Positions 3,397 through 54,599 of a stretch of 64,000 bases of DNA are shown here, piece after piece (positions within the stretch are counted from its first letter, which is position 1; every line of letters begins with the position of its first letter). A program made the translations under genes and the position numbers. Under the pieces are notes generated by a model. That model was given only the letters and a program-made list of their open reading frames with translations. It was not told the origin of the DNA and searched no databases. The stretch is from Azolla caroliniana (taxonomy: Eukaryota; Plantae; Polypodiophyta). Location: contig JBHGNT010000020.1 of assembly GCA_043228905.1 (NCBI GenBank), positions 12,524,001 through 12,588,000 on the forward strand. Direction: 5' to 3'.

Positions 3397-4016
3397 GAAA
3401 TATCCATTGTCATTGTCTTCACCCCATATACCGAGTGCAACTGCTTAAGCCAATCCACTTCTGGCATTTGCTAAAAATGAATCTGAGATCCCACTGATGT
3501 TGTTGGCCCATTGCCAAGTTTTCCCCATGCAAGACGAGTTCTAAGGCCTAATACATTTCCAATAGAATACCGGACAAGAGAATTAGCCAAAAGCGGCTAA
3601 TTCATCCAACCATCCCATATGTCATGCATCTATTTGTGTAAGAAAATCATGATTACATCCCATGCTCTGACGATTCCCAAGATAAATCTATTGGATGTTA
3701 GATTCCGTCTCTATGTCTGTACATATGTCAAGAACATCCATTTCAAAGAAGGCAACCAGTTTCCTCCCGTCTTGGGAGATTATTGCATCAACTGATTAAG
3801 TAGCATACCCTTCAATGCCTCTATCCCTGGCAACAATCCTTTGACTACCAACTTTGTCAGGAGAGCTCGAGATTGCATAAAGGGATCTATTAAAGCCAAC
3901 CTTCCTTGTCTTTTTAGCCTAATCAAAACATCCCATCCCACCTTGGCCATTGCACGAGACCCATTTTTCCCACCCCAAAGGAAGTTACGTATGAGGCATT
4001 GAACTTTCATGATTGC
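3397..4016 (-). mobile_element. L1-like LINE ORF2 fragment, same family as 39225-43213
   Basis: IRNFLWGGKNGSRAMAKV.WD motif; alignable by eye with 40505-41125. Confidence 0.9.
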
Positions 4017-5513: not shown

Positions 5514-7441
5514 TAGCGATGGGCCTTGTTTGGTTTCTTTGCCTTGACACCGAACCAAACTATTTATATAAAACAAAGACCAAACCAAGTTGTTTATGAA
5601 CTTTGAAGCCATTTAAGAAAAGGTAAACTAAACCCGTTAGAATTCCAACCACGCTGCAACATTTTCCGCAACCGCGCATCGGACTTGATGCTTACTTTCA
5701 GGTCTTCCTTTTGCTTTCAACGGGAGTCATTACAACACGACGTTCAATGCGACACGTTAGAACTTACCATTGACAATATTGGTGCAATTTACCCAACCAA
5801 GGTTGCGTACTCGTCTTCCTGACCAAACATCCTCGCAACATCGTCTCGCCTTGCAAGTTTTACCGAACAAAGCCATAGATCGATGGGATACGTAACCATC
5901 TTTTAACATCGTCAAAACTCTAGCTGCAGCCTTTGAGATTTAGCGTGAGCGAAATGGTGTGCACCAACAACCCCTGATCAAAACAAACAGTTGAAATGAG
6001 TTCTCTTGTTCTCCTTTCCTTGCCAATGTAACGTCAACGAAGAAGAAACAAGAAGTTCTCGTTGTAACGAATGACAACGTTCTCGAAATGCTGCAAAGCT
6101 CGAGTTGTTTGCTAGTCGACAAACCCTCCACCTCCGCATGTCATCGGGCTGGAGGCCGTATGACCTAGTTTCGAGGAGGGGTCGCTTCCCGAGGTTTGTG
6201 GCACGTACCATATAGCGTTTGAGGGTTCTAGAAAGGGAACGAAAATTGGTGTGAAACTATCGTCGATCATTTTCCCAATTTGGTGCAACCATACAAGTGG
6301 TGACCCGAGTCCCGCGGATGGCACAAAACCTCGACGCGCTAAGGTGAGGAAGACGGTTTCCTAGTGAGCTAATATGGTACGTCGGCATGCTCAAGAATAA
6401 TCACGTCGCCCTCTCTCTCGTGTTGCCAACAAGAGGGTGTTTTCCTGCTCCAACTTCGTAGCAAGAATGAACGAGGCAGACTCATTGACACGCGTCGAGT
6501 AGGTAAGAACATCCATACTACTTAACGAGGCCACTCGTCATGCTCACGCTCCATTTGCTAACCTTGATCTTGTTTACAACTTTTCCATGACTTCTTGAGT
6601 TTTTTAACACGGAGAAATAAGCAAGAGTTGTTCTCTTTGGATTCTTTATCTCTCTTTGAGTTTTAAGTCATCAACATCAGAGTGGCGCAGCGGAAGCGTG
6701 GTGGGCCCATAACCCACAGGTCCGAGGATCGAAACCTTGCTCTGATACTGTGCGGTTGAATTATACGTTGTACGTCAAAACCATCGCTACGATCTTGTTA
6801 CCCTCCTTGCGTGGGTTCTTATTCAAGACGTTACCGTCGCTCGAGCTTCGTTCGAGGAGTTCTTTAGGGATTGCTAATCGCGCACGTGTGGAAGCTAAAG
6901 AGGAATGGGCCTGTAAAGTAATTGCCATGCCGGTGCCTTAGTTAGGGCTTTTGAATACATTTGGTGATCACATCAAAGTCGAATGTAATAAGTACTTGCT
7001 CCCTTAGTGGTCAACCTAAACCGTTTAGGGAAAAGTTGAAACCAAACTGAATCATTTAATAAATTATATAAACGTAACCGTTTAAGTCAAACTAATTAAA
7101 AATCTAAAACGAAAAACATTAGGTTGATTAAATCAATAAAAAACATTAATTAAACCATTAAATTAAATAAGCATTAAAGTTAAATTGATTAAATCAATAA
7201 AAACCCATTAATTAAACCATTAAATTAATATACCATTAAGGTGGCAAAAAAAGTTAACCAATAAACCTTTAAACCAAACCATTTAAATGTATAAACCAAT
7301 CAACACGAGTTTTAGAACCAAACTGAACTGAAAGTGAACCGTTTATTAGAAATCTAAACCAAGCCAAACCATTACATTTTTTTTTGGAAACCATGGTTTT
7401 TCGGTTCGGTTCAGTTTGAGCCGAAATTGGGCCCATAGCTA
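5514..7441. mobile_element. Non-autonomous hAT-type DNA transposon (older copy) with internal cargo including tRNA-iMet
   Basis: Left end TAGCGATGGGCC, right end GGGCCCATAGCTA. Flanks AGAAGCAC (5506-5513) and ATAGGCAC (7442-7449) match at 6 of 8 positions. Both subterminal AAACCG/AAACCAAAC-rich regions resemble the ends of 49674-54341. Confidence 0.75.
6676..6747 (+). tRNA. tRNA-iMet: Initiator tRNA-Met (CAT)
   Basis: 72 nt ATCAGAGTGGCGCAGCGGAAGCGTGGTGGGCCCATAACCCACAGGTCCGAGGATCGAAACCTTGCTCTGATA. A1-U72 pair, ATCG T-loop typical of eukaryotic initiator tRNA, CAT anticodon, upstream CAA. Confidence 0.97.
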
Positions 7442-7486: not shown

Positions 7487-7803
7487 AGGGTTGAGAGGGA
7501 GAGGGGTATGTTGTGTAAATTCCCAAAACCACCCACAAAAACGAAACATTGGGGGTGGGAGGGAGAGGGGTATGTGGTGTAATTTCCCAAAACCACCCAC
7601 AAATACAAAACACTGGGGGTGGGAGGGAGAGGGGTATATTTTGTAATTTCCCAAAACCACCCAAAAAAAACGAAACATTGGGGGTGGGAGGGAGAGGGGT
7701 ATATTTTGTAATTTCCCAAAACCACCCACAAGAACAAAACATTGGGGGTGGAGGGAGAGGGGTATGTTGTGTAATTTCCCAAAACCACCCACAAGAACAA
7801 AAC
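7487..7803 (+). repeat. Tandem repeat, ~64-bp unit x5, G-rich
   Basis: Unit GGGGGTGGGAGGGAGAGGGGTAT..GTAATTTCCCAAAACCACCCAC..AAACATT at about 7487, 7551, 7615, 7680 and 7744. Confidence 0.95.
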
Positions 7804-7895
7804 AGAGTCTTCTTCTTCTTCGTTTTTTTCTTCTTCTTCTTCTTCTTCTTCTTAGGGTAGGGCGGGACAGAACACAGAGACAGACACAGAGCGCG

Positions 7896-26500: not shown

Positions 26501-29184
26501 CGGCTCTATTCCTGAACCATAGAACTTATAAAACAGAGAATTAACATTCAATGATTATAAGATTATTATATAAGGATAGTTAACAGTTCATAGGAGAAAG
26601 TAATAATTGAAAAAATCTTGGCCATGACATCCTCCACATAAACACAAATAGGGCATCATATCATCACAAACAAACTGGAATCTTGTCTACCATCTCATAA
26701 AACCATCAATCCTCTAAGACTATTTACTGATAAGATATTGATTCAGATGCACCATTCAAGATTGTCATTTCAAAACTATTTGACTGTGTTATAAGAAACT
26801 TTTTACACGTTTAACATTCACATTGTCATATGCTTTAGCTTCAAAAAAGTTTACACACTTGGCGAACTGAAGCTTTTGATATCCAGGAGGGTGTCAGACA
26901 AGGGGTGTTGTTTAAGGCATCATATGAAGTCTCCTTAGCTTTCCCACAATCAATAACAAAGACCACATCATTGATTGTAATACTAGTTTCTGCCAGGTTT
27001 GTAGCAAGCACAATCTTGCGTATTTTGTTGGGAGCAGGTTCAAAAATCAGTTTCTACATAAAGAGAATTTCAGTTAGTATGTTGATAGCAAGTAAACGGC
27101 ACAAGTGATTAAAATTTTTACCTGATCTGAAGTTGTCATTGATCCATGACATGTGAGAAGCATGACCTTATTAGGGTTACCTAAAATAGGGTTTACTTTC
27201 AGGCAATCCTTCAAGGCATTAATGTCTTCCCAACCTGTCATAAAAACTAGTACAGCTCCTTCCTTTCCATACTTACAAATGTAGCAAAGTAAATCCTCAA
27301 TAAGCTTGAACCCTAGACACTCAGGGTTCCATTGTGACAGAGAGAATTGGGTAGCACCACTAAATGACCTTAGGTCTGCACGTGCTAATGCATCCTGAAA
27401 TTTCAATACAACATATTACAATTCCAATTAAACGCATTCAGAAATAAATTAATAATTTACACCATCATTGTAATCTCAAAGAATCACTTTAGCACTTACT
27501 TCAGCTAAGGCAACCACTGGATTCTTTCGACTCCTTTGCATTTGTTTCTGCATTTTCCATAGTTTATCTTGCCCATAATCATCAACTTGATCAAGTTCTG
27601 AAAGTCTATATCCTGTCATTTCTAAAGTATCTTCCAAGAAATACGTTTTCACTGGATATGTAAACCCCTGTTAGACAAGGTTTAAGTTTGGTACTCATTA
27701 AAGAAAAACTTTCTTCTGTAAAAGGAAACTCTAGATGAACAGGTTTTGTCATGAAATACTAATTAAAACACACATGTCACAGAATTGTAACACTTATACT
27801 GAACATAGTGTATATTTGTCATTTGCAAAACCATGAAGAGAAAATTGTGCGAGAACTTCAACTGTTTGGAATGAAATATTGACTTTCAAACATTTAAATT
27901 TGTGGGATAGCTTACTTGAACATTTCTCTCCATTAAGATTTAATAGGAAATGCAGCCTCTAAACATATTGCATAGCTTCTTTGAGCCCATTCTTTAGCGA
28001 AACATCAATGATTACATCAATCAGTTCGGACAGATATTCAGCTTCATCAAGTATTTAAAAGCCAAGATATAGTATCATATTCCACTCTCTGTTCTTGGGC
28101 CTCTTTTTGGAAAAAAAACCGGATTGAATCTGTCTCCTAGGATGTGAGAGATGTTTCTCTACACATTTGACAAGATGAAACAGCACGTGCAATCATTGCT
28201 TGACAATATAAATGGCCACGTTTAATATTTACTCAGACATTCAGCATACATTCATTATCATTTTGGGGTAGTTTATAACTTCAGGGTGCAGGTGAATCGG
28301 ATATCCATTAAGGAAGAAATATTTGGTGAGGTGCTCTCTGTTAGAACTTGCGGTATTATGATAGACCCATTTATTCCCCCCAAAAAAAACATTTTGTTGA
28401 TAATATCATTGGCCATGTAGTCAGTTATCAATACAAACAATCTGATAACTTACAGGTATATGAAACATATGAACAATTTGAAACTTACAGGTATATGGCA
28501 CATAGGAGCACCATCAAAAAAAGAGGAGAAAAGTTTTGCATTAAGTGTTGCACTCATCAACACAATCCTTATATCCGGACGACGTGGTAGAATGTCTTTC
28601 AATACAATCAATAAAAAGTCTGCAAAAACATAATCAGCTATACATTGGCTACATGTACAAACAATCTTAGGGGGCAAAAATAAACGTTCTCTATGCTTTA
28701 ATATACCTTCGTTCATGCCTCGTTCATGAATCTCATCCACAATCACATGAGTCACTCCCTTGAGATCAGGATCCATCACTAGCCTTCTAAGCAGAATTCC
28801 AGTCGTGCAGAACAGCAACCGCGTTGACATACCTCTCATCCCTTCCAAACGGACTTTGTAGCCAACCTTTTAAATAACCAAGAAAAAATGAGATATCTGA
28901 ATCTAAATCTTCCAGATGTTTCATTAGATATGGAAAGGTTCTTACCGATTCCCCTAACTGCTCTCCTCGCTCCGTTGCAACTCTTTCTGCAACAGAGATG
29001 GCTGAAATACGTCTTGGTTGAGTGCATATAATATTACAAGTGCTTCCATTTCCAGCCTCAATTTCAGACTCTAGAATATACTGAGGTAGTTGTGTTGTTT
29101 TCCCACATCCAGTCTCCCCTGAAATAACAAGTACCTGCAAGAATGTGGTCACATGTCAAAAGCATTGATGATCACAAAGCCCTT

Positions 29185-32344: not shown

Positions 32345-32960
32345 CCCCAACTGCCCCCTCTCACTGTATTTTTTCTGTATTTCCCCAAATGCCCTTCCTT
32401 CTGTATTTTCCATATTTCCCTAAATGCCCCTCTCACTGTATTTTTTCCATTATTTCCCCAAATGCCCTTCCATTTGCATTTTCCTTATTTCCCTAAATGC
32501 CCCTCTCACCGTATTTTTTTCATTATTTCCCCAAATGCCCTTCCTTTCGTATTTTCCTTATTTTCCTAAATGCCCCTCGCACCGTATTTTCATTATTTCC
32601 TCAAATGCCCTTCCTTTTTGTATATTCTTTATTTCCCTAATTGCCCCTCTCACTGTATTTTCATTAGTTCCCCAAATGCCCTTCCATTTGTATTTTCTTT
32701 ATTTCCCTAAATGCCCCTCTCACTATATTTTCATTATTTCCCCAAATGCCCTTCCTTTTTGTACTTTCTTTGTTTCCCTAAACACCCCTCTCGTTGTATT
32801 TTCATTATTTCCCCAAATGCCCTTCCTACTGTATCCCCATATGCCCATTCTACGTCTCCTTCATTTCCCAAATACCTTCCCCACATTTTCATTACTTTCT
32901 ACTAAAATTTCATTATTTCCCCAAATGCCCTTCCATTGCTTTCAATATTTTCCATAGATG
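32345..32960. repeat. Tandem array (~69-bp dimer of TTTCCC[C/T]AAATGCCC subunits) directly upstream of the helicase start
   Basis: Repeated ATTTCCCCAAATGCCCTTCC...ATTTCCCTAAATGCCCCTCTCAC; it explains the spurious repetitive ORFs here. Confidence 0.92.
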
Positions 32961-35750
32961 CCCTTAACAACACGAGGTTCTTTCTCAAATCCAGATGCCT
33001 TAACAACATGAAGAATTGACATTAAAATCTCTTTCAAATGTTTAGTGTGAGATTAGTGTATTATTCCTTAATCATGGCTTTATATCATTAATACTTTCCA
33101 CATCTCTAGGAGTTGAAACTTTAGCATTAACCTTTCAATGGGCTGGTTATTCTGCAATTGCAATAATAAGATGATGTTAACAACATTGACCCATCTACTT
33201 ATGGTAGGACATCCATAACCAAGTTCAACGGGCTAATGTGATGAGTCTTCTAATCAACAACTTCCTGCTCCCATCATATGTATATCTACATGTCCATGTG
33301 ATGCATTTTTCTAATGGGTAATTTGATTTAGCTTCAACATACGAGCACTAAATTCCAAATTAAACTTCAACGCCCATTCAAAATTGATTTCTTAACGATA
33401 TAAAATCATGCATAAAATGTGGGGAAATTTTAGAGGTATCTGTGATGTGATGTTTTTTTGCATTTCCCCACGTGCCCTTCGTGAACCCCCCAATGAGAGA
33501 AAAGGGGAACGGATGGATTGACTACATGAATTGCTCTAAAGGGGTCAATTGTGCAAGTATTTGGAAATATATCGAAAACCTTGGGGCATTTTGGGGAAAT
33601 AAAGAAAACACTTGGCGGCATTTGCAGGAAATAAAGAAGTCAATGATGTGTTAAGGTTTTCTCGAAATTAAACGTCACACTTCCAAGTTCATTAGACTTT
33701 CATGTATTAACGATATAACCATTAAAACAATCTTCACAATGAGAGATGTTGCATATGATATCTAGGAGCAGTATATTAAATTCAATATGATTGTATGAAA
33801 GCCCAAATATGTTTGTTTGTGTGTGTGTACCTTGTATGGTGTGTAAATTAGACATGGTTGACATATTGAGGAATAGGTAACATGATCGTCACGATGAAAG
33901 CCTAGCCCCCACCATCGATGTCTCAAGAGTCAAGACGTCAAACTTCCTACGTAATGTGTTTTATGAGGGAAGTTAGGCCTCATGTTTATACTGTTCACTA
34001 GGCCCCCTTCAATAGATGTGATTTTCTAAAAGACTCTCTATTCATTGGTTGTCAATATTGTGATAATGCATGCACATATCATTTCTTCTATCCAATCACA
34101 TTAACCCCTTTCTAAATTTGGTCAGCATACCCTTCACTTGTGTTTTGTTAATATTAGGGAATTACCCTCACCTATGTTATACGTGTGTAACAATGTCAAC
34201 ATTGTACAATATGTAAATGGTCAAGGTTGACAAATTGTGGTGTCGCATCCACATTCCATTAGGTCCACTTACATTCACATTGTCAACTAACTAATAAAAA
34301 GTCGGTCATAGAAACCAAAATGAGTGCAAGTTTTCAAGAAACACAAGCGCGTGCAAGGTTAAATGAAAATTTAACTTTATAAAGTTATTAATAATAGTTT
34401 TAACCAAAATGGCTAATTTTTGCATCCTATTTTCATACATAGTTATCTATTTGTTGCTAAATGAAATGACTATTAGACGCATAATTCACAACCCAACATA
34501 TGTGCGTATGTTATTTAGTCTATTGTCATCTAGTTCAATGGAAACCAAGTTTTTTATGCCCACATAGGTCATTTCATATTAGAGAACACAAAGAAGGGAC
34601 ATATCTAACCTGTCAATCCATCAATGCATGTCAACATGCTAACTGTCATCGACGATGCACTAAAATAAACATCATCACCTTACTCCTCTGTAGTTAGTTT
34701 CCATTGATATAAATGCTAGAATCCTACATTTTTTTTTAGATTTAACATTATTGGCTTTTCCATCAACATCTACAAATTCATCAGATTCTTTATCAATGCA
34801 TTATCCTTTAAACATCAAACGTGGTTATTCCCTGCATAACCTTAGGGACCAATTCTAAAGGTGAATTGTAAAAGGTAGGTCTACCTCATTGTCCAATTAA
34901 ATTATTACTTTTTGATGGAAGAACTACCCTTTCTCCTTTTATATATCCAAAATGAAGAGCATGTCATAAAAAAGTTTGCTTTATATAATATATGCACAAA
35001 TTTGAGATTTTTTTTCCATAAAACATATGCTCCATTGGTATTAATAAAAGGCCAGAGGCAGTATACAAATAGTATATAATATTGTTTCATCTCCACAAGT
35101 ATATATTATCAAAGACAAGACCAAATATAAGCTTTGGCATTTGGCAAGATAAGGATAATTATAATCCATGAATACAACTCTCAGCCTTACCAATAACGCT
35201 TTTGCTACGGCAAGCTAGAAGACCACATATAAAGGTGAAAACAATCTCCAGCATGTAAAAACCAGTCAGTGCTTCATCGAAACGTCCATTCTATCATGAT
35301 TTCATTCCAAATGGCCACATTTGTAGTTAGAAGCGTTTGAAACACATGTTCCTTTGACCCTTGTCATGGTCTCTAAAAACTTCATGTTGCAGACAAAGTT
35401 TGTTGAAGTTGATTCTACATATGCTAAAGCTCTTGATTGTCCACCCTGGCTGGTAGTTTGAAAACTTCAAGTTCACATTTGGTTTTGCATGTACTGAAGA
35501 CCATACTCAACATATAAACAACATCTCAGAGTATCTAGCTTTTTCGAACTTCATTTTTCCACATTAGCCCTCAACCTTTCACAAATTTGAGAAATTGCAT
35601 AGGCAACTACTTGAATAAAAAACATTGATATTAACAGCATTCTTTTCGCATGAAGTTGATAATCTTGTTTCCATTACTAGCTAGAACTCCATGAATAGTG
35701 AGAGACGGGATGTAAATGAGTTTGCAACAATCTACACATATTTTCCTAGT

Positions 35751-39224: not shown

Positions 39225-42200
39225 TATTTATTTATTTTTTTCCCAAAAAGATTTCCTTCATTAGTATTAAGAAAAAAACACCATAAGGCTACAAACTGTA
39301 CAATTTAGAGAGTATTATATACAAAAAGGATAATCAGGGGAAGGGCCAAGGATGATGATACTTCCAGATTGGTCCTTGAGAGGAGATCGTGAATAGAGGC
39401 AACTTCCTCCATAATTGTAGTCATTTTTTCCTTTTCTTAAGAACAACCTCCGAAGGGCCCGACATATTGTCATACTGCCCACGCATTACTGCCAGTAAGT
39501 TGTCCCATAATTCTAACAATATATCTGAGAGAAGGGGTACTATGGAATCATATCGTCTTTTACATCGATACTTCCATAAGGTCCATAATGTAATCGTGGC
39601 TACTGTTTTCCATACTTGGGCTGCATGCATTTGCTTTCGAGGCTGCTGAAAAGGCGAGATATATATTAGATGCCTGTTGATGACAGTCTTAGCCTCTAGA
39701 GCATCATCTGCCTCATACAATAATAGACTGGAATGGAGAACCCCCCATACCACTAATCCCCAGGAGAATAGGCAACCTACATTAATTGTCAGGAATAAAG
39801 AAAGAACTTTATTCCATACCTGTTGAGTTAGTGAACAGGACCAGAGAGCATGCTTGGTAGTTTCCTGTAAGTCACCACAATAACTACACTGTCTAAGAAC
39901 GGGTGCCACGTTTCCTTTCAAAGCTTGACCTACCGACAATGCTGCATGTAACAAAAGCCATCTGAAGAGAGTGTATTTTGTTGGTCCCCTAAAAGACCAA
40001 ATCCATTTCCAATAAGCCTTCAAATGATTGCTTGATACACCCCACTTATTCCAGTGCTTTTGAGCCGTAGGAGTTGGAATATTCTTAGACATGAGTAAGG
40101 TTCTACCAAATTTCACAGTATACTGAAAGAATGGAACTGCATTGGATCCATCATGGGACTAGTCCAAGACCATCCCCATGGGTCCCACATTAGCCTATTA
40201 ATTGGCTGACGTGCATATAGCCAAAGCATATCCAACAAATGGACTATTGACGGTTGTGGATCCAGGAGCCATTTCTTACCAGTTTTGGCAATCACCCTAA
40301 TTGGAACAACACGTAGGTTTTGTAGCAAATTTTCAGAGGGTGTATAAGGCTGCAATTTATTATCCAGTTGAATATGGAAATAAAAAATACACCCGTCTGT
40401 AGAAATTCCCTTAACAAAGAGCATTATGCCATTCATTAGGCAACCAAACCACATATGCTCCTGCATCGGCTGAAGTCGCGATGAGGCCCGAGAGAAGGCT
40501 GCTGAAATATCCATCTTCATTGTCTTTGCCCCATCTATCGAATGTAACTACTTAAGGCGATCCACCTCTGGCATCTGCTGAAAATGAATCCAGGATCCTA
40601 CTGATGCTGCTGGCCCATTATCAAGTTTTCCCCATGCAAGACGAGGTCTAAGGCCCAATACATTTCCAATAGAATCCCGAACGAGAGAATTAGCCAAAAG
40701 CGGTTGATTCATCCAACCATCCCATGTGTTAGGCATCTCCTTGCGTAGAAAAATCTTGATTGCATCCCATGCTCTGACAATCCCCGGTAGAAATCTATTG
40801 GATGTTAGATTCCGTCTCGGTGTTTGAATATCTGTCAAGAACATCCATTTTAAAGAAGGCAACCAGTTTCCTCTCGTCTTAGGATATAATTGCATCAACT
40901 GATTAAGCAACATACCCTTCCATGCCTCTGCCCCTGGCAATAGTCCTCTGACTACAAACTTTATCAAGAGAGCTCGAGATTGTATCAAGGGATCTATTAG
41001 AGCTAACCCTCCCTGACTTTTTGGCCTAATCAAAACATCCCATGCCACCTTGGCCATTGCACGAGATCCATTTTTTCCACCCCAAAGGAAGTTACGTATG
41101 AGGCTTTGAACTTTCATGATTGCCGACCAAGAGAACAACCAAGCTGATGTGATAAACCACATTGAAGCCAACAACACCGAATTTGCAATGACAACCCGAC
41201 CTACAAGGGATAACTATTGCGAGTTCCAATATACCAACTTACGCTTAACTGATAATAGCAATGGTGATAACATCACTCCAGATGGTAAATCTATACCAAC
41301 AAGACAACCTAAGTAACGAATCGGCTCCCCATGATTTAGCCAACGGAATGCAGGGCCTGGATACCATTGTGGATGCGGCTCATCATTGGCCCAAAGGTCT
41401 ACAGATTTATTCCAATTGAGAGAGGCTCCAATAACATCTGAAAATATCTGTAAAGCATTTTGTACCCGATCAAGATTAACAACATCTCCACGAATATAAA
41501 GAGCAGTGTCATCCGCAAACTCTGTATCAAGAACTGTTGAGTTTGCAATATATAAGGCTATTCCTTGGATGGCCGCTATCGAGGATCTAAGAAAAGCTGA
41601 TAAAGCTTCCCCAAATAAAATAAAAAGAAATGGTGCTAACGAACAAACTTGTCGAACAGATTTGGAAATTGGAAATAATGTACCATTGCCTCCAGAAAAT
41701 AAAACTGAGCTAGACGCGTGTCTATATAATGCAGACACCCCTTTTATCCATGCACTTGGAAACCCTAATCTTGATAGAACTGCCTCCAGAAAGTCCCAAT
41801 CTACTTTATCATATGCTTTCTCAAAATCTAATAATTGTATAGCAAGGGACTTTTTGTGATGTTGAGCTAGTGCAATCATCTCCCAAAAAAGGAAGATATT
41901 GTCAAAGATGCTTCTATCTTGAAGGAATCTTGATTGTGTATCATGTATAATCGAGGGAAGCAACGATCACATTCTATTGGCTATAGTTTTTTCTACTATT
42001 TTATAGATGTCGTTAAGCAAAGTTATTGGACGCCATTTTGATATTTCATTACATTGAGCATATGATTTCAGGATCATGTATATGATTCCTTCCGTCCATT
42101 CTTCGGGCATATTCCCTGTTGAGAAAATTAAATTAACTGCTCTAGTAAGAGTAGGCCCCAACAAGTCCCAGTAGTGCAAATAGAATACCACTCCTATGAC

Positions 42201-43213
42201 ATCCTTTCCAGGGCACACATTTTTCCCCAGGGACTTAGCCACTGTCCAAACTTCAGTGTCTGTAAATGGTTGAAGCAACTGGGAAGCCATTACATGAGTG
42301 ACCTTCTGTTGTATTGTTTCTAGTACAAGTTGTCTCTTATAAAGGTCCTCCTCCGAGAAGGATTTAGCAGATAACAATTGATGGTAATATGTTGTAGTTA
42401 TGTCTCGCATCTCCGAATCATCCGTTGTGTAAGAGCCATCAAGTCGTTTTAGGGTTTTGATAGATAGTGTTTTATACTTCTGTTTAAATTGACTGAAGAA
42501 TTCTCTGTTAACCCTATCCTACTTCTATGACCAAGAAGTTGTATTACGTTGATAGAAATACAATCCTCTCGCATGTTGCTTTTCTTTTAAATTGCTTTTT
42601 ACTTGTTGTAAATCTGATAGTAACATCGGTGAGGTTGGATATCTTTCCAATAACTTTTGTGTTGCAGCCAATGCTCGACGCAAATTAGCAATCTAAGCAC
42701 CACATCGATCAACCGAAGAGGCAACTATGTTTATGAAGAAACTCTTGACATCAAGAATGGCATAAGTGATATCTCTGAGTAGAAAGGCATCAAAGAAGTT
42801 ATACTTAGACCAGATTTGAGCTACAGAAACTCTATGAGTTTCATCAGCAAGCAATGAGTTCGGGATACGGAATTGCTTAAGATAGGACCTTTGGTGAATA
42901 CAATGTTTAACTTCAATGGATAATGATCAGAAGTTACCGCCCCAGGAATAATCCCCATAAATCCAGAAGCTTCCCAAAAAAAGCTACTAGCATAAAACCT
43001 GTCCAATCGTGCCAAATTAGCTGCAACCATACTACCATTTGAACGGGAGAAATGAAGGGAGCCTTGCATTCGAGAAATGGAATGAATATTCCATAGATCC
43101 AATAAACCAAAAGAGAAACAGAACGAATCCCAAGCTCTAGCTTCTCGGCCTCTTATTGTATTGATTGATCCTCCCCTTCTATAAGATGTTTCTTCAATCA
43201 TGTTATTTGACAC
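39225..43213 (-). mobile_element. 5'-truncated L1-like LINE: ORF2 (endonuclease end, RT, zf-RVT) with stops and frameshifts
   Basis: RLDRFY..SDHYP, KWRPITLLN, LDFEKAYDKV, FADDT, RYLG, CSYC..ETTKHALWSC; A/(TAAA)n tail near 39225. Confidence 0.95.
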
Positions 43214-44723: not shown

Positions 44724-47700
44724 TGTCACAGATAGATCATAAGCTCAAGAGACAAGAAAGAAGATAGACAAATGGATGAGTTGTATTAACGGAAAGACTC
44801 CATAACTGGTGTTGTTCACCTTGAATTCCTTCAAGGTGAACTCCTCTATTTATACTACATGGCATGCATACTTGTTGCACGCATGTGAATCTACAATAGA
44901 GCATGTAGGTATGCATGCATGTGCCAAGTGTAAATACTATAAGGGAGCAACTATGCACATGATGCTAGCAAAACAATAAGGACCAATTACATACATAATT
45001 GTGTACTAGATATATTGGTTAACCCATGATACTAGATTATAACATGGTCGTGTCAAGAGTTCGAATCTTGACATTATCCCCCCTCCTACACCGCCTTCCC
45101 AAATCGGCCATTGGTTTGTGGGGATATTGGTGATGAAAATCGTGGACGACCTTTGGGGCATTTTGTAAATTTTCCGATGGTTCCCACGTGGCCTCAAACA
45201 TGGAGTAACCCCTCCATAGGACAAGGTATTGCAAGTGTTGACGGTGCCAACGCGAGTCAAGGATTTGGTCGACCTCGTATTCCTCCCCTGTCGTCAATTG
45301 CACAGGTGGTGGTGGTGGGGCCTGACGTCATGGGAGTTGTGAAGCATAATGGGGTTCGAGGAGGGAGACATGAAAAACATCATGAATCCGGAAGTGGGAT
45401 GGAAGGGCGAGCCGGAAGGCGACGGGATTGATGCACTCGATGATACGGAATGGTCCCAACTTCTTGTAATCAAGTTTCGCACATGGACGAGTAGTAGAGA
45501 TGTGTCAACGTAACAACCAGACTATGTCTCCAAATTCAAAGAGTGGAGTGGTAGATCGATGGCGATCAGCCTGCTTCTTGTATCATTCACTAGCAAGACT
45601 AAGCTCTAAGGATAAATCATGATGTAGTTCTTCCAAAATGCGGGCGTGATCCTCCGCCGAAGGGTTCACGGAAGTGGTAGGAAGGGAAATGTTTAAGCAA
45701 GGATGTAAACCATAGTTGGCAAAGAAGGGAGTGACGCCAATCGATGCATGGAGAGAATTATTGTAGGCGAATTCCGCGAGCGAAAGTAAGTTGACCCAAT
45801 CATCTTGTTGGTAACTAACAGAGTACCGAAGATACTGCTCAAGGATTTGGTTGACACGCTCCATTTGCCCGTCAGTTTGGGGGTGATAAGCGGATGACAA
45901 CTTGATAGAGATGCCTAAAGTTTGTAGCAGGCGCTGCCAGAAGTGAGAGACAAACTGGGGTCCGCAGCGTACCACATTGTTGAGTAGTAGATGCACCATT
46001 CCTTCTCCGGAAATGGTTTTGGAGCATGGAGTGAAGTGAGCTATCTTCGTAAACCGATCGACAACGACCAACACCGAGTCATAGCTATTGACCAAGGGTA
46101 GATAAGTTATCAGGTTCATAGAGATAGAGGCCCAGGGACGACGAGGACATGGAAGCGACTGTAGTAAACCGTATGGCCGATGATGAATGGCTTTGGAGCG
46201 AGCACAAACCTCACAACTCTTTATGTATTCTTTGACCAACTTCCATGGTTGTGGCCACCAATACCCCCGAGAGATTAGCTCGAGGGTTTTCGCGACGCCG
46301 AAATGACCTGCAAGTGGATCATCATGGCATTCCCGCAACACCCGAGTGCGACATGGGCCCTCTGGGACGTATAAGAGATGATCTTGGAACAACAAACCCT
46401 CTTGTATGGGGAAGGTGTCAAGATCCTTCCTTTTGGTCGCATTGGAGGGGTTTTGCAAACTATCTCGAATCTCGTTGGCGAACGCATCGGTCTTGTATGC
46501 ATCAGTGATTTGTTGGAGTAATGAATCATCCTGCAACATACAAGTGGCAAAAAGATGCAATTGGTCGGGTTTCAACAAACGTCTAGATTGTTGAGCATAA
46601 GCAACATCCCTAGGGCGGAGTGCAAGGTCAGCTTGGCGAGAAAGGGCATCGGCCTTCCCATGTTGGTCACCAGGTCGAAATACGATCTCAAAATCGTAGT
46701 CGGCGAGAAATGTCGACCAACGGGCCTGCCTTCGATTCAAAGTACGAGTGGTGGAAAAATAAACTAAATTTTTATGATCAGTCACTACATGGACACAATG
46801 TTGTGCGTCGGCCAAGTAGGGTCGCCATTCTTCAAAGACAACAATGATAGCAGCAAGCTCCTTGTCGTATATGGGATAATTGATTTTGGATGCCGTGAAT
46901 TTCTGGGAGTAGTAAGCCACTGGGTGCATTAGGTTGGTGTTGTCTGCCTGGGATAAGATGGCGCCAATGGCGAAGTCAAAGGCATCGGTTTCAACTTGGA
47001 AGGGTTTGGTGGGGTCGGCATGTAGCAGCATCAAGGCAGTGATGAATGCGTGTTTGAGTGAGTCGAACGCATTTTGGGCCTTCGAGGTCCATAAAAATGG
47101 AGTGCCTTTACGGGTGAGAGTGATAAGAGGTTGTGCTAGGGTGGAAAACCCCTTGATGAAGCGATAGTAAAAATTCGCGAAGCCGAGGAAGGATTGTACA
47201 TCTTTAAGTCGCCTTGGAGTCGCCCACGCCTGAATGACAAAGACCTTCTTCATATCCATGGTGATGCCAATGGGCGAGATGATGTAGCCCAGAAATTCGA
47301 TCGAGGTACGATCGAACTCGCATTTCTCACCTTTGGCATAAAGGCCATGCTCGCGAAGTTTGGCAAGAACTAATTGGACTTGGCGAGTGTGCTCCTCCAT
47401 GTTTGGCGAGAAAATGAGAATATCATCGAGGTAAATGACAACAAAATGATCAAGATATTCCCAGAATATATCGTTCATCATATGTTGAAAAACTGTTGGA
47501 GCGTTAGTAAGACCAAAAGGCATTACCTTGTGTTCGAAATGCCCATACCGTGTTTGAAATGCAGTTTTCCATTCATCCCCCGGCTTGATGCGTACTAGAT
47601 TGTACGCTCCACGCAAATCAACTTTGGAGAAGACACGCGCAACTCTAATCCGATCAAGGAGTTCAGGGATCAAAGGTAGCGGATAGCGGTTGCGCACAGT

Positions 47701-47907
47701 GAGTTTGTTGAGACCTCGGTAGTCGACGCATAAGCGTAGAGAGCCGTCCTTCTTCTTCACAAATAAAATGGGGGCCCCGACTGGTGACTTAGAAGGTTGA
47801 ATAAATCCTTTCTCGAGGTTCTCATCGAGATACACACTAAGGGCCTTCAACTCTGGTGCAGACAACGCATATAGAGGACCAAAGGGTGGACATGCACCTT
47901 CTTGATA
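44724..47907 (-). mobile_element. Ty3/gypsy chromovirus, internally deleted: RT-RH-IN-chromodomain, PPT, 3' LTR (45073-44724); TSD GGTAT
   Basis: LRLCVDYRGLN, YLDD, ETDA, integrase HHCC, chromodomain EYEVDQILDSR..YLVLWRGY..ATWEP. PPT GGAGGGGGG precedes TGTCA; the LTR ends TGACA. GGTAT at 44719-44723 and 47908-47912. Confidence 0.93.
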
Positions 47908-47912
47908 GGTAT

Positions 47913-49055
47913 TTACTAAGGTATTGGCAAATAGATTGCAAAAATGCATACACTTGACCCAATACAATTTCAATGCAAGTAGGAATATATTGCATAATGT
48001 GCTTAATTTTCAAATAGTTAGGGATTATGGCCATAATACTCATCGTGAATTAATTATGATGCAATTGGATTTGAGAAAACTTGTCCATGGACCCCAAAAG
48101 GCTTTGCATTCCATTTTGCAACCTCTTCGATATTTGTTATGATCAAAGAGTGATAAGATCATAGATCACGTGTGTTGCATAGAAACCATCTAGCAACTCT
48201 TAATCGTTGGGGGGGGGGGGGGGGGGGAGGGGTGCAATATTGAACTTATCTACACATATGATGGCTTACATATTTTTGCTATCTCAAGACATGTGTTCGC
48301 ACTCATGATTGTGGATATCTATTTTCTAGTATTGCATTGAGAAGGAAGGTCTAAAATATGGGAGGACAACGACTAAGGCATCACAATAGCAATTACTTAA
48401 TGAATATATTCTACTTAATTTTCCTTGTTCTTCATGTGCCCAACACTTGGTTGTCCCATGGAAAGAAGCACTCTTTTTATTTTTATGGGCACCATCATCT
48501 AGTAAAGAACATTGTATTTCCTTGAAAAGGAGTTAATGACATATTCTCGATTATTATGTTGGCATGGAAAGGATATGTCATGTTCTCAATTTAATCGTTT
48601 ATTTTGTTAGGGGGTCAAACCAATACGAAATATAGTAGAGGCTCAATCTCAAAAAATTTATGATTTTGTTGTAGTGTAACTATTATTATGCATCTCACCC
48701 AATTATGGGTTTATTTGGCAACAATTACAAAGTATTGCATTGATATGTGGTCATTTACCTATAGAAATCGAAGAGCACCATGGGTTGATTGGTTTTTATG
48801 GGGTTACAAGTGAACCATTGCACCATCGAGTCTCTTTGATGGCCATCATCTAAGGTTGAATAAGAATGGATGGTTTGGTAGACTTTTGCACGTGCGTGTA
48901 AAATGTGAGTGGGACCACCAGGGACCTAAACAAGAGATGACAACATTCTTTTTGAGGAATACATTGATTAGTTTCACTTGATCACGTGGAATGCTAGTAG
49001 TTTCCACCCTCAGGAATGTAAGATCTTCTTTAGCCACAATCCATGAGTATCCTGG
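47913..49055 (+). mobile_element. Degenerate LINE RT region, right part
   Basis: TKVLANRLQ, RNILHNVLN...MMQLDLRK and later DDxxxF / YxG-like remnants. Confidence 0.65.
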
Positions 49056-49894
49056 TTTATGTGTTTATTTGTGCTTAACTACATGCTTGATGCTTACATG
49101 CAAATTTGCATTACGAGAAAATGTGTGGGTATGTAGATAAATATAAAGGTGTGCCTAACTATATAACTTTGTGCTTATAAGTATGTATATGTGTAGATTC
49201 ATGTGTGTGTATGTGAATGTGAAATGCAAGTATGTTAGTTTTTGGATATAATCATATAGGTAAGAGTAAATGCCAATGTATGTCCTTGTAAATTGTAACC
49301 GTAAATGCATTTTGTACAATTTTGTAATTGAGTGAGTGAGTGTATAAGTATTTATATTTATATTTCTATGTATATGTTTGGGTTTATGTGTATATGAGTG
49401 TGTAAACATAAACATCAAGAATAATGTGTATCGGTTTGTCAATGTGAACTTGTTAATGTATATATTTATATATGTGTGTGTATATATATAGGGTTATGCA
49501 TGTGCAAATTTGATTGGGTATGTCGATGTTCATGAGCAGGACGGAACTCGCAGTTTGGGCGCCCAAAGCCTCAACTCAATGGATTTTGGGAGCTCGAGGA
49601 CTTTTCAAGCATTGAGGGTCAGATGTGAACCCTTGAGGTTTAGGTCAATAATGTTCATGGACATGTTCATACTTAGCAATGGGCCCAGTTCAGTTCAGTT
49701 TCTTGGCCTTGAAACCAAACCAAACCATTTATTCATAAAAAAACCCGAACCAAATTGTTTAAAATTTATGAAGCCATTTAAACCGAACCGTTTAAAAATT
49801 AGGAGAAACCAAACCATTTACGGAAAATTTAGAACCAAACCAAACCGGTTTATCATAAAACAACCCTTTTTCCATTACATCTCAACCCTTTTAT

Positions 49895-52240
49895 AGAGTT
49901 TCGTAGTACACTCCAAGGTACCTTCTGTTATCTTGGCACACTTATAGTTACTCCTCTAGTTACCTCTAACTAACCCTTAACTAAATTATGGTATACCGTA
50001 TAACTAACTAAACTATGGTATAACTCCCCTAACCCTGGTTATAGTTACTTGGGTTAGGTGAGGGGTTTTACCACGCGATCCCACAACTCCCCCCTTCGAA
50101 AAACTTGCATATGTCGCTTGTGCTTGATGGTGCCTTTGATCCGTTGTTGTGGGGGCTACATCTAATGTGTGGCTATTCCAGATGGCGTCTCGGTTGCTCA
50201 TGTTTGATGGCGGCTCTGGCTCATCCTGCTTGTTGGCTGGGATTGGAGAGTTTTATGATTCTTCATTGCAGGGGACATCATGGTGAGTTGCTTCTGCTTG
50301 TGATGCTTGAGTTGTGGTAGTATCTGTGGAGTGGTTGACATACGACTTCATCCACATCACGTGCGCATAGGTCATCCATCCATTAGCATCTCGATTGAGG
50401 GAATAGGTATTGGTCCTCATTGATCGGATGACAATAAAAGGGATCCATCTATGCATCATTGATTCACTGAGTCCCCGTCACCGGATCGGGAAATAGACTA
50501 GGACTTTTGCTCCCGCTGCATACTCTATCGCCCGACGGCTTTTATGATAACACCGCTTTTGTCGTGATTGATTATGTAATTAACTACAAGTTAATTAATA
50601 CCTAATTATGTGATTAAGTAGCGGAAGATTATGTGATGTGTGTGTATGTATGTGAGAGTGTGAGAGTGTGAGAGGAAGAGAGAAAGAACACTTATGAACA
50701 ACAAGACAAGATGGGGATGGTTAACTATATTAAAAAACATCGTCCAATACAAAAATACCCACAATGAGGTATATATACATCTCATGTGCAAAAGTGCACA
50801 TGTGTGAGTAGAATATAGGTACAATGATGTAAGTCCTATATTAAATGAACATGGGAGTGGAGGATCTACAATGTATCCCACTCAAGTACAAAATCCTATT
50901 TAAGGCTTTAAGGTCAACACACTAACTAGATTCTATCTAGGTAACTTCTAAGTTACATGTGTTGACTAACTAACTAAATCTAGTTGAGCTTGATATCTCA
51001 ACACTGAGTTAGTTGTAGGTTCTTGTGTATGCTCGACCATAAGATAGGTTGGATTTGTTGCAAGTGTAGCCACCAATCCATTGCGTCGACCCGAGTATTT
51101 TTGTTGGGTAGGTCGACCTTGATGTCGCGGGGTAAGCGGGGGTCTCACCCATATAGTGCTCGGAAAGGGCTGATTCGAGTCAAGGCTTGCACCAAGGTAT
51201 TATACGTATGCGTGATGAAGGGTAGGATCAAGTCCCACGTTGTGTGTAATGGGTCGATGAATGCGGTAAGTTGTTGTTTAATCGTCTTGTTCATCTGTTA
51301 TGTCAATCCGTTCGTCTGGGGATGATATGGTGAGGTAAATATCTGTTGAATGCCTAAATGTGTGGCTAATGCTTGCAATACCCCTCCGCTAAATTGTGGT
51401 CCTTTATATGATAGGATGCGGGTTGGGTAGCCATGTGGGAAAACAATCCGCTCCATCAACTTTGTTGCTATGGTGTTGGCCCGTGCGTCCGGAATTGTGG
51501 CGGTTTCGGTCCATCTCATCAAGTATTCAGATATGACTAAGATATACTTGTTTCCTACCTGGGATTCGGGAAAAGGGGTCGTCATTGGAATGGGGTGGTT
51601 TAATCTGTTGACATGATTGGCATTATTTGATGTAAACCGCGATCGTTGTACACATTTGCGGCCAATAATACCGGAGACGGATCTTGTCCAACACCTTGTG
51701 GAATCCGAGGTGGCCAGACATCGTGTGATCGTAAAAAAATTGCATATATAAATTCCACAAGCTATGTAGTATGTAGATTCGTGGCTCTTTCCCTGTTTGT
51801 ATAAAGTAATAATAAGACATTGTTTTGTAATTGGAAATGGCTGTGTACCTTTTTGTATGTTGTCGACTGGATCTCATGGATAATTTGTCGTATTTTCTCA
51901 TTGGCTTGTTGTAGGGCTGGTATCTGTGCCATCGTTGTGGGTAATTGGACTAGTGTAGGATTGAATTGAACACATTGTGTTTCCACTCTTGACAAACCAT
52001 CGGTGATCAATTTTTGGACTCCTTTTTTATAAGTTAATGTGAACCGATATTCTTGTAAAGCCATTGCCCATCTTAATAGACGACCTAGTGGGTGTGGCTT
52101 GTTAATTAGATGAATTAGGGGCTGATGGTCTGTTTCTACCTTGACGTGGGTGTCATGCAAATAGGGATGGAACTTTTTGAAAGCCCATACGATTGATAAC
52201 CATTCATTTTCTTTTCTTTCTTTTCTTTTCAAAACCAAAA
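49895..52240 (-). mobile_element. Decayed Ty3/gypsy fragment (RNase H end, integrase, PPT, partial LTR) inside the hAT element
   Basis: VETDHQPL..GRLLRWAMALQEY, GHLGFHK..RYYWPQM, SPYHPQTNGLT; PPT GAAGGGGGGAGT then TGTGG at 50085. Confidence 0.85.
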
Positions 52241-52376
52241 TATCCTTCCATTAGTTTTTAGAAAAGTCATAACAATTGCAACATACAAAATATTTTTTCC
52301 CAACTCATCTTTATAAGACAATGGTTAAGGAAACAAATCTATGTACTCCAAAGTAGAGGAAAAACTAATCTGAAAG

Positions 52377-53330
52377 TTATTCTATAGACACATTCCAAGC
52401 TATTCCATTGACAACAACAAAAGTAGTTGCATCCAAAGACAAGACCTCGCAACTCATAGATATGAACCATTTCAATGCTTCTTCAACCTGCTCTTGTTCA
52501 ACATAATTTGTAATCAATACATTCCAAGCTATTCCATAAACATAAACAAAAGTTGTGACATCCAGAGACAAGCCCTCGCAACTCATAGATTGGAACCATT
52601 AGAATGATTTTTCAGCATGCTATATCCACCAATGCAATTCCAATAAATCTTCCTTTACCCTAAAAACCGAATGCTACCACAAGCTTCCAAGGTAGAGAAC
52701 AATGTATTCCATGCCTCTACATCTCGGTTTTGAAGGCAATCAAATACATTCTATACTTCTTCAAGACAACCACATTTCATATGCACGTTCACATCAATCA
52801 TCTTGTTGGTTAACACCAAATTCTTGGTTCTATACTCCCTCCATTCTCTTGAAACTACCTCGTATACATGAAGACAATGAACCACTTGTATGCTCACACA
52901 ACTTCGGAGAACCATAGCATGTAGACCATTCTTCAAATTACATCATTCTGCCACATCCAATCCTTGTTGTATGATCACCAAGTAAACCACAAAAAATCTC
53001 TGTTGAACCATGATCCACCTAGCCACATATAGCATATGTCCAACAATGCCTTTCCAAGCTCAATATTGTCTTTTAGCAGCCTGATACTCATGATTCCATT
53101 GCAAGTTACTGTGCCTATTAACCACTCCTATAGTGCCACTTGGTAGTAATATCCTGAAATTAGTGCATTTTTAGAAGCCATAGCCTGAACTGGAAGTCCC
53201 TCTTTCCTCATAGGTAAAGCACACAAGATGAGGGTCATATGGCGGCCTTCTAGCGTCTTCCATTACTTTGTATCCACACAAAGAAGTTGCATTGTGAAAC
53301 ACCATCCTTCTTCAACCTGCTCATAGTTAG
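52377..53330 (-). pseudogene. PLS-type pentatricopeptide-repeat gene fragment inside the hAT element
   Basis: WNVLITNYVEQEQVEEALKWFISMSCEVLSLDATTFV and neighbouring degenerate PPR motifs with stops and frameshifts. Confidence 0.8.
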
Positions 53331-54599
53331 CTACACCTAAAATTGTTTCCACTCATCCTCCCCAGAAAAAAGAGAAAACCACTCCCCAAATTTGAAAAAT
53401 AAATGAAACATAATCTATCCTCCTTGTCACTCCCTAGAAGTGCTTCAACATCCTTTAACATCATCCATCTGCCCCATAATAAAAAGATTTTCTCATAAGG
53501 ATGGATTCCCCAAGCAAAGCCAAACCACTCTTGTAATTTCCACTTTTAATGTAGACAAAGTAGTTACATCTTGAGACAGTCTTTTATTTTCCACATTTAA
53601 CCAACTTATAAATAGCAATGCATAAGGCCTGGTACCAAATGTATACATCCTAACCATTCATTTTTTGTTGTGGAGTAATTATTTTCTGCAGGAGTAAGCG
53701 ATCAACTTATATAGGCAATCAGGTGCTTTGCCCCTGTTGTATCTGCTTGTAGTAGTACAACTCCCTACCCATGATTTGGTGCGTTTGGTTGCAAAAGGAA
53801 GGGGCGTGAGAAATCTGGGTGCGCCAACTAACGTGCTTAGTTTAGTGTGTTTTTCAATTGGATGAAGTTGTTCTCACATTCTATTGTCCACTCAAACTTT
53901 GAGCCTTTTCGTAATAGGTGTCGTAGAGGGGATATCATGATTCATACTTATTATAAATTTGTTCATTATACTTATCATAAATTTGCTCATCATACTTATC
54001 ATAAAATTGCTCAAATTTGGTCATCATTCTTATTATAAATTTGGTCATCATAAATGAAAAGGAGACTCTACATATAATGCATATAAGATTTAATAAGTTA
54101 AAACTAGAGTTTAAAATTAAAAGTTGAAAGCTAGAGCCTATACGGAAAATTTAGGAGTATTTTTTAACCTTTAAACTGAAACACATATTAAACCGAAACC
54201 GCTAAACCATGAAATTCAAAACCGAACTAATTAGTAACATTTGAAACCAAACCAAACTGTTTATTTATCTTCGAACTTATAAACCGTTAAGCCACGGTTT
54301 AACAATTCGTTCGGTTTGAACCGAAACGGGGCCCATTGCTATTCATACTCACCACCTTTTCAGTATAGGTCACTTTTTCCCTACATCGACCCTAGCTAGG
54401 CTCAAACCCTTAACCTTTTATCTTTCATCGACCTTTTTGTTCAAGTAGACAACTCTTGCCACTTGAGCTACCTTTAGTTGTTTGGTTAATTCTACCTTGT
54501 CACTTCTTCTTTGGGAATCTCTTAATCTTGACCTATTGCAAACCTAACATTTATCTACTTTTGTTCCCTTTCACGTACCACATCACAACAACCACTTCG

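What the first reader, a model, noticed from the sequence alone, without database searches (positions are those of the whole stretch)
49666..54349. Pack-like hAT element: perfect TIRs and TSD around a 4.7-kb chimeric cargo (gypsy relic plus PPR gene fragment)
Seen: exact 13-bp TIRs and exact TSD TTCATACT, but heavily decayed internal cargo and no transposase. The cargo looks older than the insertion, so it probably moved as a unit. The sister copy at 5514-7441 has the same ends and completely different contents. Inference: a family of cargo-shuffling elements analogous to Pack-MULEs and Pack-CACTA, but of the hAT type.
Basis: partly seen in the sequence, partly recalled or inferred. Interest (0 to 1): 0.72.

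Follow-up and report, generated by a model that had tools for sequence, protein, structure and literature searches.

The report
Nested hAT element; LINE carries cargo
This is an ordinary small cut-and-paste plant transposon that likely filled up in place with pieces of other jumping genes; its PPR gene fragment came in with a LINE retrotransposon whose family carries spliced pieces of several host genes in its tail and has copied them around the genome.

Summary
The exact 13-bp TIRs and 8-bp TSD are real, and the family is hAT: 499 exact TIR hits genome-wide, with transposase-bearing relatives. The interior is not one captured cargo. It is a ~590-bp MITE holding a 2.2-kb gypsy piece that was later hit by a solo LTR and by a 5'-truncated LINE with its own 14-bp TSD and A-tail. 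The 'PPR fragment' is ~390 bp of that LINE's 3' UTR, taken from a PPR gene by the LINE lineage long ago. All tested junctions are single-copy, so movement as a unit is unsupported (about 20%). Pack-hATs are already in print. Two side results go further. Four related transposase-bearing hATs do carry an intron-containing helicase fragment and a PPR piece, so the family-level idea holds elsewhere. The LINE lineage carries different host-gene mosaics in its tail: one subfamily holds spliced starch-branching-enzyme and Rab-GDI mRNA pieces at 21 loci. The scan earlier noted a multicopy host-exon-carrying LINE in a shark (unchecked note).

The parts
49666..49673 (.). hAT target-site duplication, left copy (TTCATACT)
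   Evidence: exact
49674..49863 (+). left arm of a hAT-family MITE, 13-bp TIR at 49674-49686
   Evidence: aligns to short copies, e.g. 90.6% to L059
49864..50085 (-). gypsy 3' LTR lacking about 24 terminal bases; joined to the MITE arm at a CCATTTT-like microhomology
   Evidence: relatives continue 24 bp further to a TG end; polypurine tract next to it
50086..50568 (-). gypsy polypurine tract and integrase C-terminal region
50572..51003 (+). solo LTR of a separate family; right end intact with target copy CTGAG, left end eroded by about 10 bp
   Evidence: 90-93% to 11 listed copies; gypsy relatives lack it
51004..52196 (-). gypsy integrase core, zinc finger and second part of RNase H
   Evidence: Pfam rve, Integrase_H2C2, RT_RNaseH; about 90% to relatives
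52197..52210 (.). 14-bp target-site duplication of the LINE (one copy)
   Evidence: exact repeat; 10 of 11 gypsy relatives show one copy of this target, the other did not align at this site
52211..53650 (-). 5'-truncated LINE copy: 3' UTR only, A-rich tail at 52211
   Evidence: 8 other copies over most of its length at 89-94%; long copies carry DUF4283, endonuclease, RT and zf-RVT
52388..52778 (-). PPR-gene-derived patchwork inside the LINE 3' UTR
   Evidence: 6 pieces of 21-128 bp, 75-100% to an 855-aa PPR gene at G000:C9:20654409-20656973
53651..53664 (.). 14-bp target-site duplication of the LINE (other copy)
53665..53939 (-). gypsy RT-RNase H connection and first part of RNase H; breaks off inside pol, no 5' LTR
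53942..54341 (+). right arm of the MITE, TIR at 54329-54341
   Evidence: 79-84% to 39 other copies; none crosses into the gypsy
54342..54349 (.). hAT target-site duplication, right copy
5514..7441 (+). sister hAT MITE of another subfamily (arms 5514-5638, 7014-7441)
5639..7013 (+). sister cargo: 1,375-bp templated insertion with a tRNA-Met(CAT) gene at 6676-6748; no TSD, no MITE loss
   Evidence: 85-87% to three TIR-less pieces on C4

Best explanation
This is an ordinary ~590-bp hAT MITE that likely filled up where it sits: a gypsy piece likely copied in during break repair, then a solo LTR and a 5'-truncated LINE inserted into that piece, the LINE bringing the PPR fragment in its tail. Steps. 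(1) Shown: a MITE with an 8-bp TSD from a hAT family that has transposase-bearing members. (2) Inferred: a break in the T-rich middle of the MITE was repaired by copying 2.2 kb of a gypsy element from elsewhere, switching template at short matches; this one event explains two non-native gypsy ends and the 30-120 bp of lost MITE. (3) Shown: an LTR element of another family and a LINE each inserted into gypsy sequence with their own target duplications. Inferred from divergence: this happened after step 2. (4) Shown: the PPR sequence is part of the LINE family's 3' UTR. Inferred: the LINE lineage took it from the PPR gene's RNA by template switching long before this copy was made. No step needs the 4.7-kb composite to have transposed.
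For: Arms 190 + 400 bp match short copies of 532-911 bp. LINE: exact 14-bp TSD and A-tail; single target in gypsy relatives; 11 of 12 other copies examined have 14-18-bp TSDs and staggered 5' ends; ORF1/ORF2 domains upstream. Older LINE copies match the parent PPR gene better (91.4, 91.8, 88.2%) than the window copy (87.5%). Single copy: LINE/gypsy junction 1 hit and MITE/LTR junction 1 hit at up to 3 mismatches; no hit crosses the gypsy/MITE junction (40 of 688 candidates scored). Substitution distance to the nearest relative held: LINE 3.2%, solo LTR 5.0%, arms 8.1%, gypsy integrase 9.0%; LINE vs arms Fisher p=3e-5, arms vs gypsy p=0.59. Perfect ends are common: 10 of 16 short exact-TIR copies have exact TSDs. 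The sister shows a clean templated insertion, and L121 has a LINE-like insert at the same spot of the MITE. [quoted passage not shown]
Against: The joined arms are 9.3% from their nearest relative, against a median 5.5% for the 10 perfect-ended short copies (only 1 of 10 is higher). All 21 paired end positions staying identical has probability 0.17 at 8% divergence, against 0.44-0.5 at the LINE's divergence, which mildly favours a later move. Arm divergence dates the last shared ancestor, not the last jump. Solo LTR vs arms is not significant (p=0.10). No close donor for the gypsy piece was found (best about 90%, 40 of 2485 candidates scored), and no same-family gypsy lies in the window. Clean nested LTR insertions into this family exist (L014), and a small junction deletion occurred here at the solo LTR, so nesting plus deletion can also give non-native ends.
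Confidence: 0.5

Rival explanations
1. Built in place by plain nesting: a whole ~4.9-kb gypsy inserted into the MITE; one large deletion then removed its 5' half with part of the MITE, and one small deletion removed the 3' LTR end; the solo LTR and LINE came later. It differs from the best explanation only in step 2.
For: L014 is a MITE with a two-LTR copia and a 5-bp TSD, and L075 holds an LTR-like insert; L015 holds a gypsy. A ~10-bp deletion eroded the solo LTR junction in this very element. The gypsy and the arms are equally diverged.
Against: It needs two separate deletions, each crossing a junction and both ending within about 30-120 bp of the same T-rich spot. No gypsy TSD or native end survives.
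Confidence: 0.27
2. One reading: the element acquired some or all of its interior elsewhere and then transposed here as a 4.7-kb unit (cut-and-paste leaves no second copy).
For: 21 of 21 paired end positions are exact despite arms 8-9% from relatives. Near-identical young transposase-bearing copies exist (99.5-99.8%), and 5-kb cargo-bearing members did move (four TSDs).
Against: There is no second copy of any junction. By a hand estimate, roughly 1 in 7 family members has equally perfect ends. The youngest transposase subfamily has slightly different TIRs. Even if it moved, the PPR piece was not captured by the hAT.
Confidence: 0.2

Closest known systems
Pack-TYPE elements incl. Pack-hAT of maize and rice (Gisby and Catoni 2022, PMC8903248; passages read)
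   Same: Non-autonomous TIR element, 8-nt TSD, with sequence that would hit a coding gene. The paper's operational rule (BLAST hit over 50 bp to a CDS) would probably class it as Pack-TYPE.
   Different: The gene piece arrived inside a nested LINE, not by DNA capture. The element is single-copy (that pipeline clusters elements and removes singletons). Most of the interior is transposon DNA.
Single-copy Pack-TIRs made by transposition-independent gap filling (Tan et al. 2021, PMC8277862; passages read)
   Same: Single copy, short matches at the breakpoints, little loss of the TIR element, breakpoints inside it. The sister at 5514-7441 fits best.
   Different: That study is on animals and reports a bias to same-chromosome donors; the sister's relatives are on another chromosome (C4 vs C20), and no close donor was found for the gypsy piece.
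LINE template-switch chimeras (Gogvadze et al. 2007, PMC2104539; abstract only) and L1-like retroposition in dicots (PMC4838847; passages)
   Same: Copies of cellular RNAs fused to LINE sequence, with TSD and poly(A) tail.
   Different: Here the captured pieces lie inside the 3' UTR of an ORF2-bearing LINE, come from several protein-coding genes, are scrambled in order, and were amplified as subfamilies.
Nested retrotransposon insertions into MITEs (general knowledge, recalled)
   Same: Successive insertions, each with its own TSD.
   Different: The gypsy layer has lost both native ends.

Membership tests
hAT superfamily (non-autonomous) | 8-bp target-site duplication | tested here: met
   exact here; 10 of 16 short copies exact and 4 more within 1-2 mismatches; 6 of 6 transposase-bearing copies exact
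hAT superfamily (non-autonomous) | short TIRs shared with a hAT-transposase element | tested here: met
   L015, L187-L192 share the TIR; Dimer_Tnp_hAT E 8e-18, 1.6e-18, 5.9e-18 in the 3 tested
hAT superfamily (non-autonomous) | mobilised in trans by the transposase | not testable with these tools
   needs an excision or transposition assay
Pack-TYPE (Pack-hAT), window element | TIR + TSD, no transposase | tested here: met
Pack-TYPE (Pack-hAT), window element | contains host-gene-derived sequence | tested here: met
   128 bp at 87.5% and five shorter pieces match a PPR gene
Pack-TYPE (Pack-hAT), window element | gene fragment captured by the DNA transposon itself | tested here: not met
   the piece lies inside a LINE with its own TSD and is shared by that LINE family
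Pack-TYPE (Pack-hAT), window element | cargo moved or amplified with the element | tested here: inconclusive
   single copy; flanks give no date; a cut-and-paste move is not excluded
Gene-carrying hAT, relatives L187/L188/L189/L236 | genomic (intron-containing) host fragment, several loci, distinct TSDs | tested here: met
   1.25 kb at 94.4% to a helicase gene on C4, 93 bp at 98% to a PPR-like frame on C5; four different exact TSDs. They also bear a transposase, so they are not Pack-TYPE by the non-autonomous definition.
LINE (L1-like), 52211-53650 | A-rich 3' tail, variable-length TSD, 5' truncation | tested here: met
LINE (L1-like), 52211-53650 | ORF1 and endonuclease-RT ORF2 in full-length members | tested here: met
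   DUF4283 (6.6e-5, below cut-off), Exo_endo_phos, RVT_1, zf-RVT; L024 is 8.3 kb with a 15-bp TSD
LINE (L1-like), 52211-53650 | RT clade placement | not tested
   no tree against named clades; 'L1-like' rests on domain content (recalled)
Ty3/gypsy fragment | RNase H before integrase, polypurine tract before 3' LTR | tested here: met
Ty3/gypsy fragment | two LTRs with native ends and own TSD | tested here: not met
   5' half missing, 3' LTR short by about 24 bp

The most novel reading that the evidence does not exclude
A 'Pack-LINE' lineage: a plant LINE that repeatedly takes spliced host mRNA pieces (PPR, starch-branching enzyme, Rab-GDI) into its 3' UTR by template switching, keeps its own ORF2 and 3' end, and amplifies each new mosaic as a subfamily. 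It would be an RNA-based exon-shuffling vehicle not yet described as a family-level process in plants, working beside a hAT family that captures intron-containing gene pieces. The multicopy spliced cargo is shown; the mechanism and the absence from print are not.
Probability: 0.45. Interest if true: 0.65.

Novelty: new variant of a known kind. Interest (0 to 1): 0.42.

Why it matters
The element as flagged is a known kind of object and a caution: TIR plus TSD plus a gene hit does not show capture by the DNA transposon, because a nested LINE can supply the gene piece. The novelty rating rests on that LINE. Its subfamilies carry different host-gene mosaics with traceable parents, so one genome gives a dated series of RNA captures. 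That makes it possible to test how template switching builds chimeras, whether such copies silence their parent genes through small RNAs, and whether LINEs drive the spread of PPR sequence in this plant. The same genome also holds gene-carrying hATs with near-identical young transposase relatives, usable to test capture.

Tried and rejected
TIRs of a non-hAT superfamily: rejected. PPR piece as DNA captured from a PPR locus: rejected (own TSD, tail and family). PPR piece as a one-off retrocopy, my first idea: rejected once ORF2 appeared upstream in long copies. A donor or second copy of the composite: not found (the DNA searches scored only 40 of 599, 2485 and 688 candidates, the two pattern searches count all). 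Dating the hAT insertion by its flanks: no result, flank repeats at most 80% alike over short stretches. The gypsy at 45583-48009 as a local donor: no match. The sister cargo as an insertion with its own ends or TSD: none seen; it stops inside a 129-bp direct repeat of the C4 locus. Pfam on the tails of L113 and L031 found nothing at E 0.001, though they match the PPR gene L206 in short stretches. The starch-branching piece had no Pfam hit but matched solved branching enzymes (1.8e-40). The ~330-bp repeat in the LINE tail was not identified. The atlas look-up gave only 'Streptophyta'; 'likely a fern' is not tested here. Paper searches for a LINE family with amplified gene cargo found no such description: 3 listed; 2; 'Pack-LINE', 10 unrelated listed of 13; 15 of 2,298 listed; 4; 0; 12. 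I saw listings only, and the library lacks most subscription papers. No supplements were read; the supplementary TE tables of PMC8903248 could bear on how Pack-hATs compare.
Full report
Observation. The element runs from 49674 to 54341 with exact 13-bp TIRs and an exact 8-bp TSD. The window is G000:C20:12524001-12588000 of a 523-Mb plant genome. The TIR 13-mer occurs 499 times against 2 for the reversed control. Among the first 100 hits listed (C1-C3 and one on C4) I counted by hand 22 inward pairs: 20 of 424-911 bp and 2 long (6.0 and 10.1 kb). Of 16 short pairs fetched, 10 have an exact 8-bp TSD. Of 20 unpaired hits fetched (of 56), 12 are short copies, 1 has a ~700-bp LTR-like insert, 5 break off with no partner within 9 kb, and 2 are not family members. 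The family is mostly a MITE.

Superfamily. The 10-kb copy holds a Dimer_Tnp_hAT domain plus a nested gypsy. A protein search with its transposase gave 113 matches (110 of 279 candidates scored), many with open frames. All 6 relatives fetched are 4.9-5.9-kb elements with this TIR (0-1 mismatch) and exact 8-bp TSDs; three are 99.5-99.8% identical to each other. The hAT assignment is met. The 6-kb copy is a MITE with a two-LTR copia and a 5-bp TSD: plain nesting.

Anatomy. The arms are 49674-49863 and 53942-54341, 590 bp together, a normal short copy missing about 30-120 bp of its middle. Between them on the minus strand lies the 3' part of a gypsy (RNase H, integrase, polypurine tract, LTR). Relatives with two LTRs span about 4.9 kb, so about 2.7 kb is missing. 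Neither end is native: the LTR lacks about 24 bases and joins the MITE at a CCATTTT-like match, and the other end stops inside pol. Two inserts interrupt it. A solo LTR at ~50572-51003 belongs to another family (90-93%), is absent from gypsy relatives, and keeps its right target copy while its left end has lost about 10 bp. The PPR-bearing piece at 52211-53650 splits the RNase H, lies between exact 14-bp repeats and ends in an A-rich tail; gypsy relatives have one copy of that target.

The PPR piece is a LINE. Eight other loci match most of it at 89-94%, and its 3'-end motif occurs 19 times at up to 1 mismatch. Copies share the 3' end and poly(A) and differ in 5' extent. Of 16 stretches fetched, 12 held the 3' end, and 11 of these 12 have 14-18-bp TSDs (L020 and L021 look like one locus). 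The longest, 8.3 kb, has DUF4283, RT and zf-RVT, and a sister copy has the endonuclease. The PPR-derived part is about 390 bp (52388-52778): six short pieces, out of order, 75-100% identical to an intact 855-aa PPR gene on C9. Three copies of an older LINE branch (ORF2 about 17% away) match that gene's main piece at 91.4, 91.8 and 88.2% against 87.5% for the window copy. The capture therefore predates this copy and was made by the LINE lineage.

Did the composite move? The LINE/gypsy and MITE/LTR junctions each occur once in the genome at up to 3 mismatches, and no hit crosses the third junction (40 of 688 scored). Substitution distances to the nearest relative held are LINE 3.2%, solo LTR 5.0%, arms 8.1% (left 5.9, right 9.0) and gypsy 7-13%; LINE vs arms p=3e-5, solo LTR vs arms p=0.10, arms vs gypsy integrase p=0.59. 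The cargo is thus not older than the arms, and its PPR part is younger. Against this: the arms are more diverged than 9 of 10 perfect-ended short copies (9.3% vs median 5.5%), and perfect ends have probability 0.17 at 8% against 0.44-0.5 at the LINE's divergence, about a threefold lean to a later move. Arm divergence does not date the last jump, and the flanks give no date. A hand estimate (each end exact about half the time, TSD exact 10 of 16) gives about 1 in 7 family members with equally perfect ends. I put build-up in place at about 0.77 (gap filling 0.5, nesting with two deletions 0.27) and a move as a unit at 0.2. That the PPR piece came by LINE holds under all three.

Sister (5514-7441). 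It has imperfect TIRs and TSD and arms of another subfamily. Its 1,375-bp interior holds a tRNA-Met(CAT) gene (that it is the initiator type is recalled) and matches three TIR-less pieces on C4 at 85-87%. It sits in the MITE with no loss of MITE sequence, no TSD and 1-2 shared bases at the junctions. This is a templated insertion of the gap-filling type (PMC8277862, passages); no other TIR-flanked copy appeared (36 of 501 candidates scored).

Real gene capture in the hAT family. Four transposase-bearing copies (L187, L188, L189, L236; 98-99% alike; four different exact TSDs) carry 1.25 kb of a helicase gene's 3' end with an intron (Helicase_C_2 1.8e-7; 94.4% to C4:119177-120433, where the gene continues upstream without TIRs) and 93 bp at 98% to a PPR-like frame on C5. 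The name DDX11/ChlR1 for the helicase is recalled. Related copies lack these pieces.

Cargo in the LINE family. Copies whose ORF2 is 4-9% from L024 have different tails. One subfamily carries starch-branching-enzyme sequence (1.8e-40 to solved enzymes) and Rab-GDI sequence (Pfam GDI 1.4e-37). A search with that cargo (31 of 31 candidates scored) gave 21 loci at 92-100% that share its 3' end and have staggered 5' ends (the query's own locus and 3 small contigs included), and both parent genes on C13 exon by exon. At 9 of 11 joins between neighbouring exons the parent's GT-AG intron is absent from the cargo; at the other 2 my script found no such pair. The exons are out of order and the LINE's own 3' end with poly(A) follows. 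TSDs of 16 and 19 bp were found for 2 of 12 such copies, and a 25-bp candidate for a third; the rest gave no convincing repeat within the stretch held. Template switching during reverse transcription is the inferred mechanism, as proposed for fungal and mammalian chimeras (PMC2104539, abstract). In the small ORF2 tree two SBE/GDI copies pair and a third (L177) falls beside them with weak support.

Comparison and verdict. Pack-hATs are described in maize and rice (PMC8903248, passages), so the proposed concept is known, and this element is at best a weak, single-copy example whose gene piece came by another route. The LINE lineage with amplified multi-gene spliced cargo is the less usual result; seven paper searches (listings only) showed no description of it, which is weak evidence of absence. 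Earlier notes of this scan mention a shark LINE with host exons in many copies and call this genome likely a fern; neither was checked here. Interest 0.42: about 0.25 for the element as flagged, raised by the LINE and by the helicase-carrying hATs.

Noticed in passing
G000:C4:21.96 Mb (L032/L099) and 20 further loci; parents L173, L174: LINE subfamily whose 3' UTR holds spliced, shuffled starch-branching-enzyme and Rab-GDI mRNA pieces.
   Followed up: yes
L187:4611-6045 (G000:C9), L188, L189, L236: Four transposase-bearing hATs with this TIR carry an intron-containing helicase fragment and a 93-bp PPR-like piece.
   Followed up: yes
L190-L192 (G000:C3, C4, C7): hAT subfamily 99.5-99.8% identical with open transposase frames; several further loci have the same score. 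Possibly recently active.
   Followed up: partly
window 5639-7013; G000:C4:7.79-7.84 Mb (L095, L097): Low-copy repeat with a whole tRNA-Met(CAT) gene and 129-bp direct repeats; nature unresolved. Many further tRNA-Met-like copies cluster at C5:24.67-24.72 Mb.
   Followed up: partly
L024 tail; window 53340-53650: A ~330-bp unit repeated about three times at the start of the LINE 3' UTR; origin not identified.
   Followed up: no
L121 (G000:C21:7.05 Mb): MITE with a ~570-bp LINE-like insert at the same T-rich spot as the window junctions; possible break or insertion hot spot.
   Followed up: partly
L085 (G000:C1:29.75 Mb): A MITE end of 96 bp runs straight into what looks like the start of a host gene; no partner TIR within 9 kb.
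   Followed up: no
L113, L031, L025, L102 tails: Other LINE copies with the same 3' end carry other PPR-like pieces (72-84% to L206 in short stretches); parents not sought.
   Followed up: partly
window 45583-48009 (-): Gypsy pol open frame of 808 aa, of another family than the cargo.
   Followed up: no
window 39421-42518 (-): LINE ORF2 relic (RVT_1, zf-RVT), with an 87% repeat at 3397-4028.
   Followed up: no
window 15610-16215 and 23594-29155 (-): Host-gene frames: BCDHK_Adom3; dsrm, DEAD and AAA hits suggesting an RNA helicase gene.
   Followed up: no
window 7488-7804, 16192-16698, 32345-32963: Tandem arrays with units of about 64, 85 and 73 bp.
   Followed up: no
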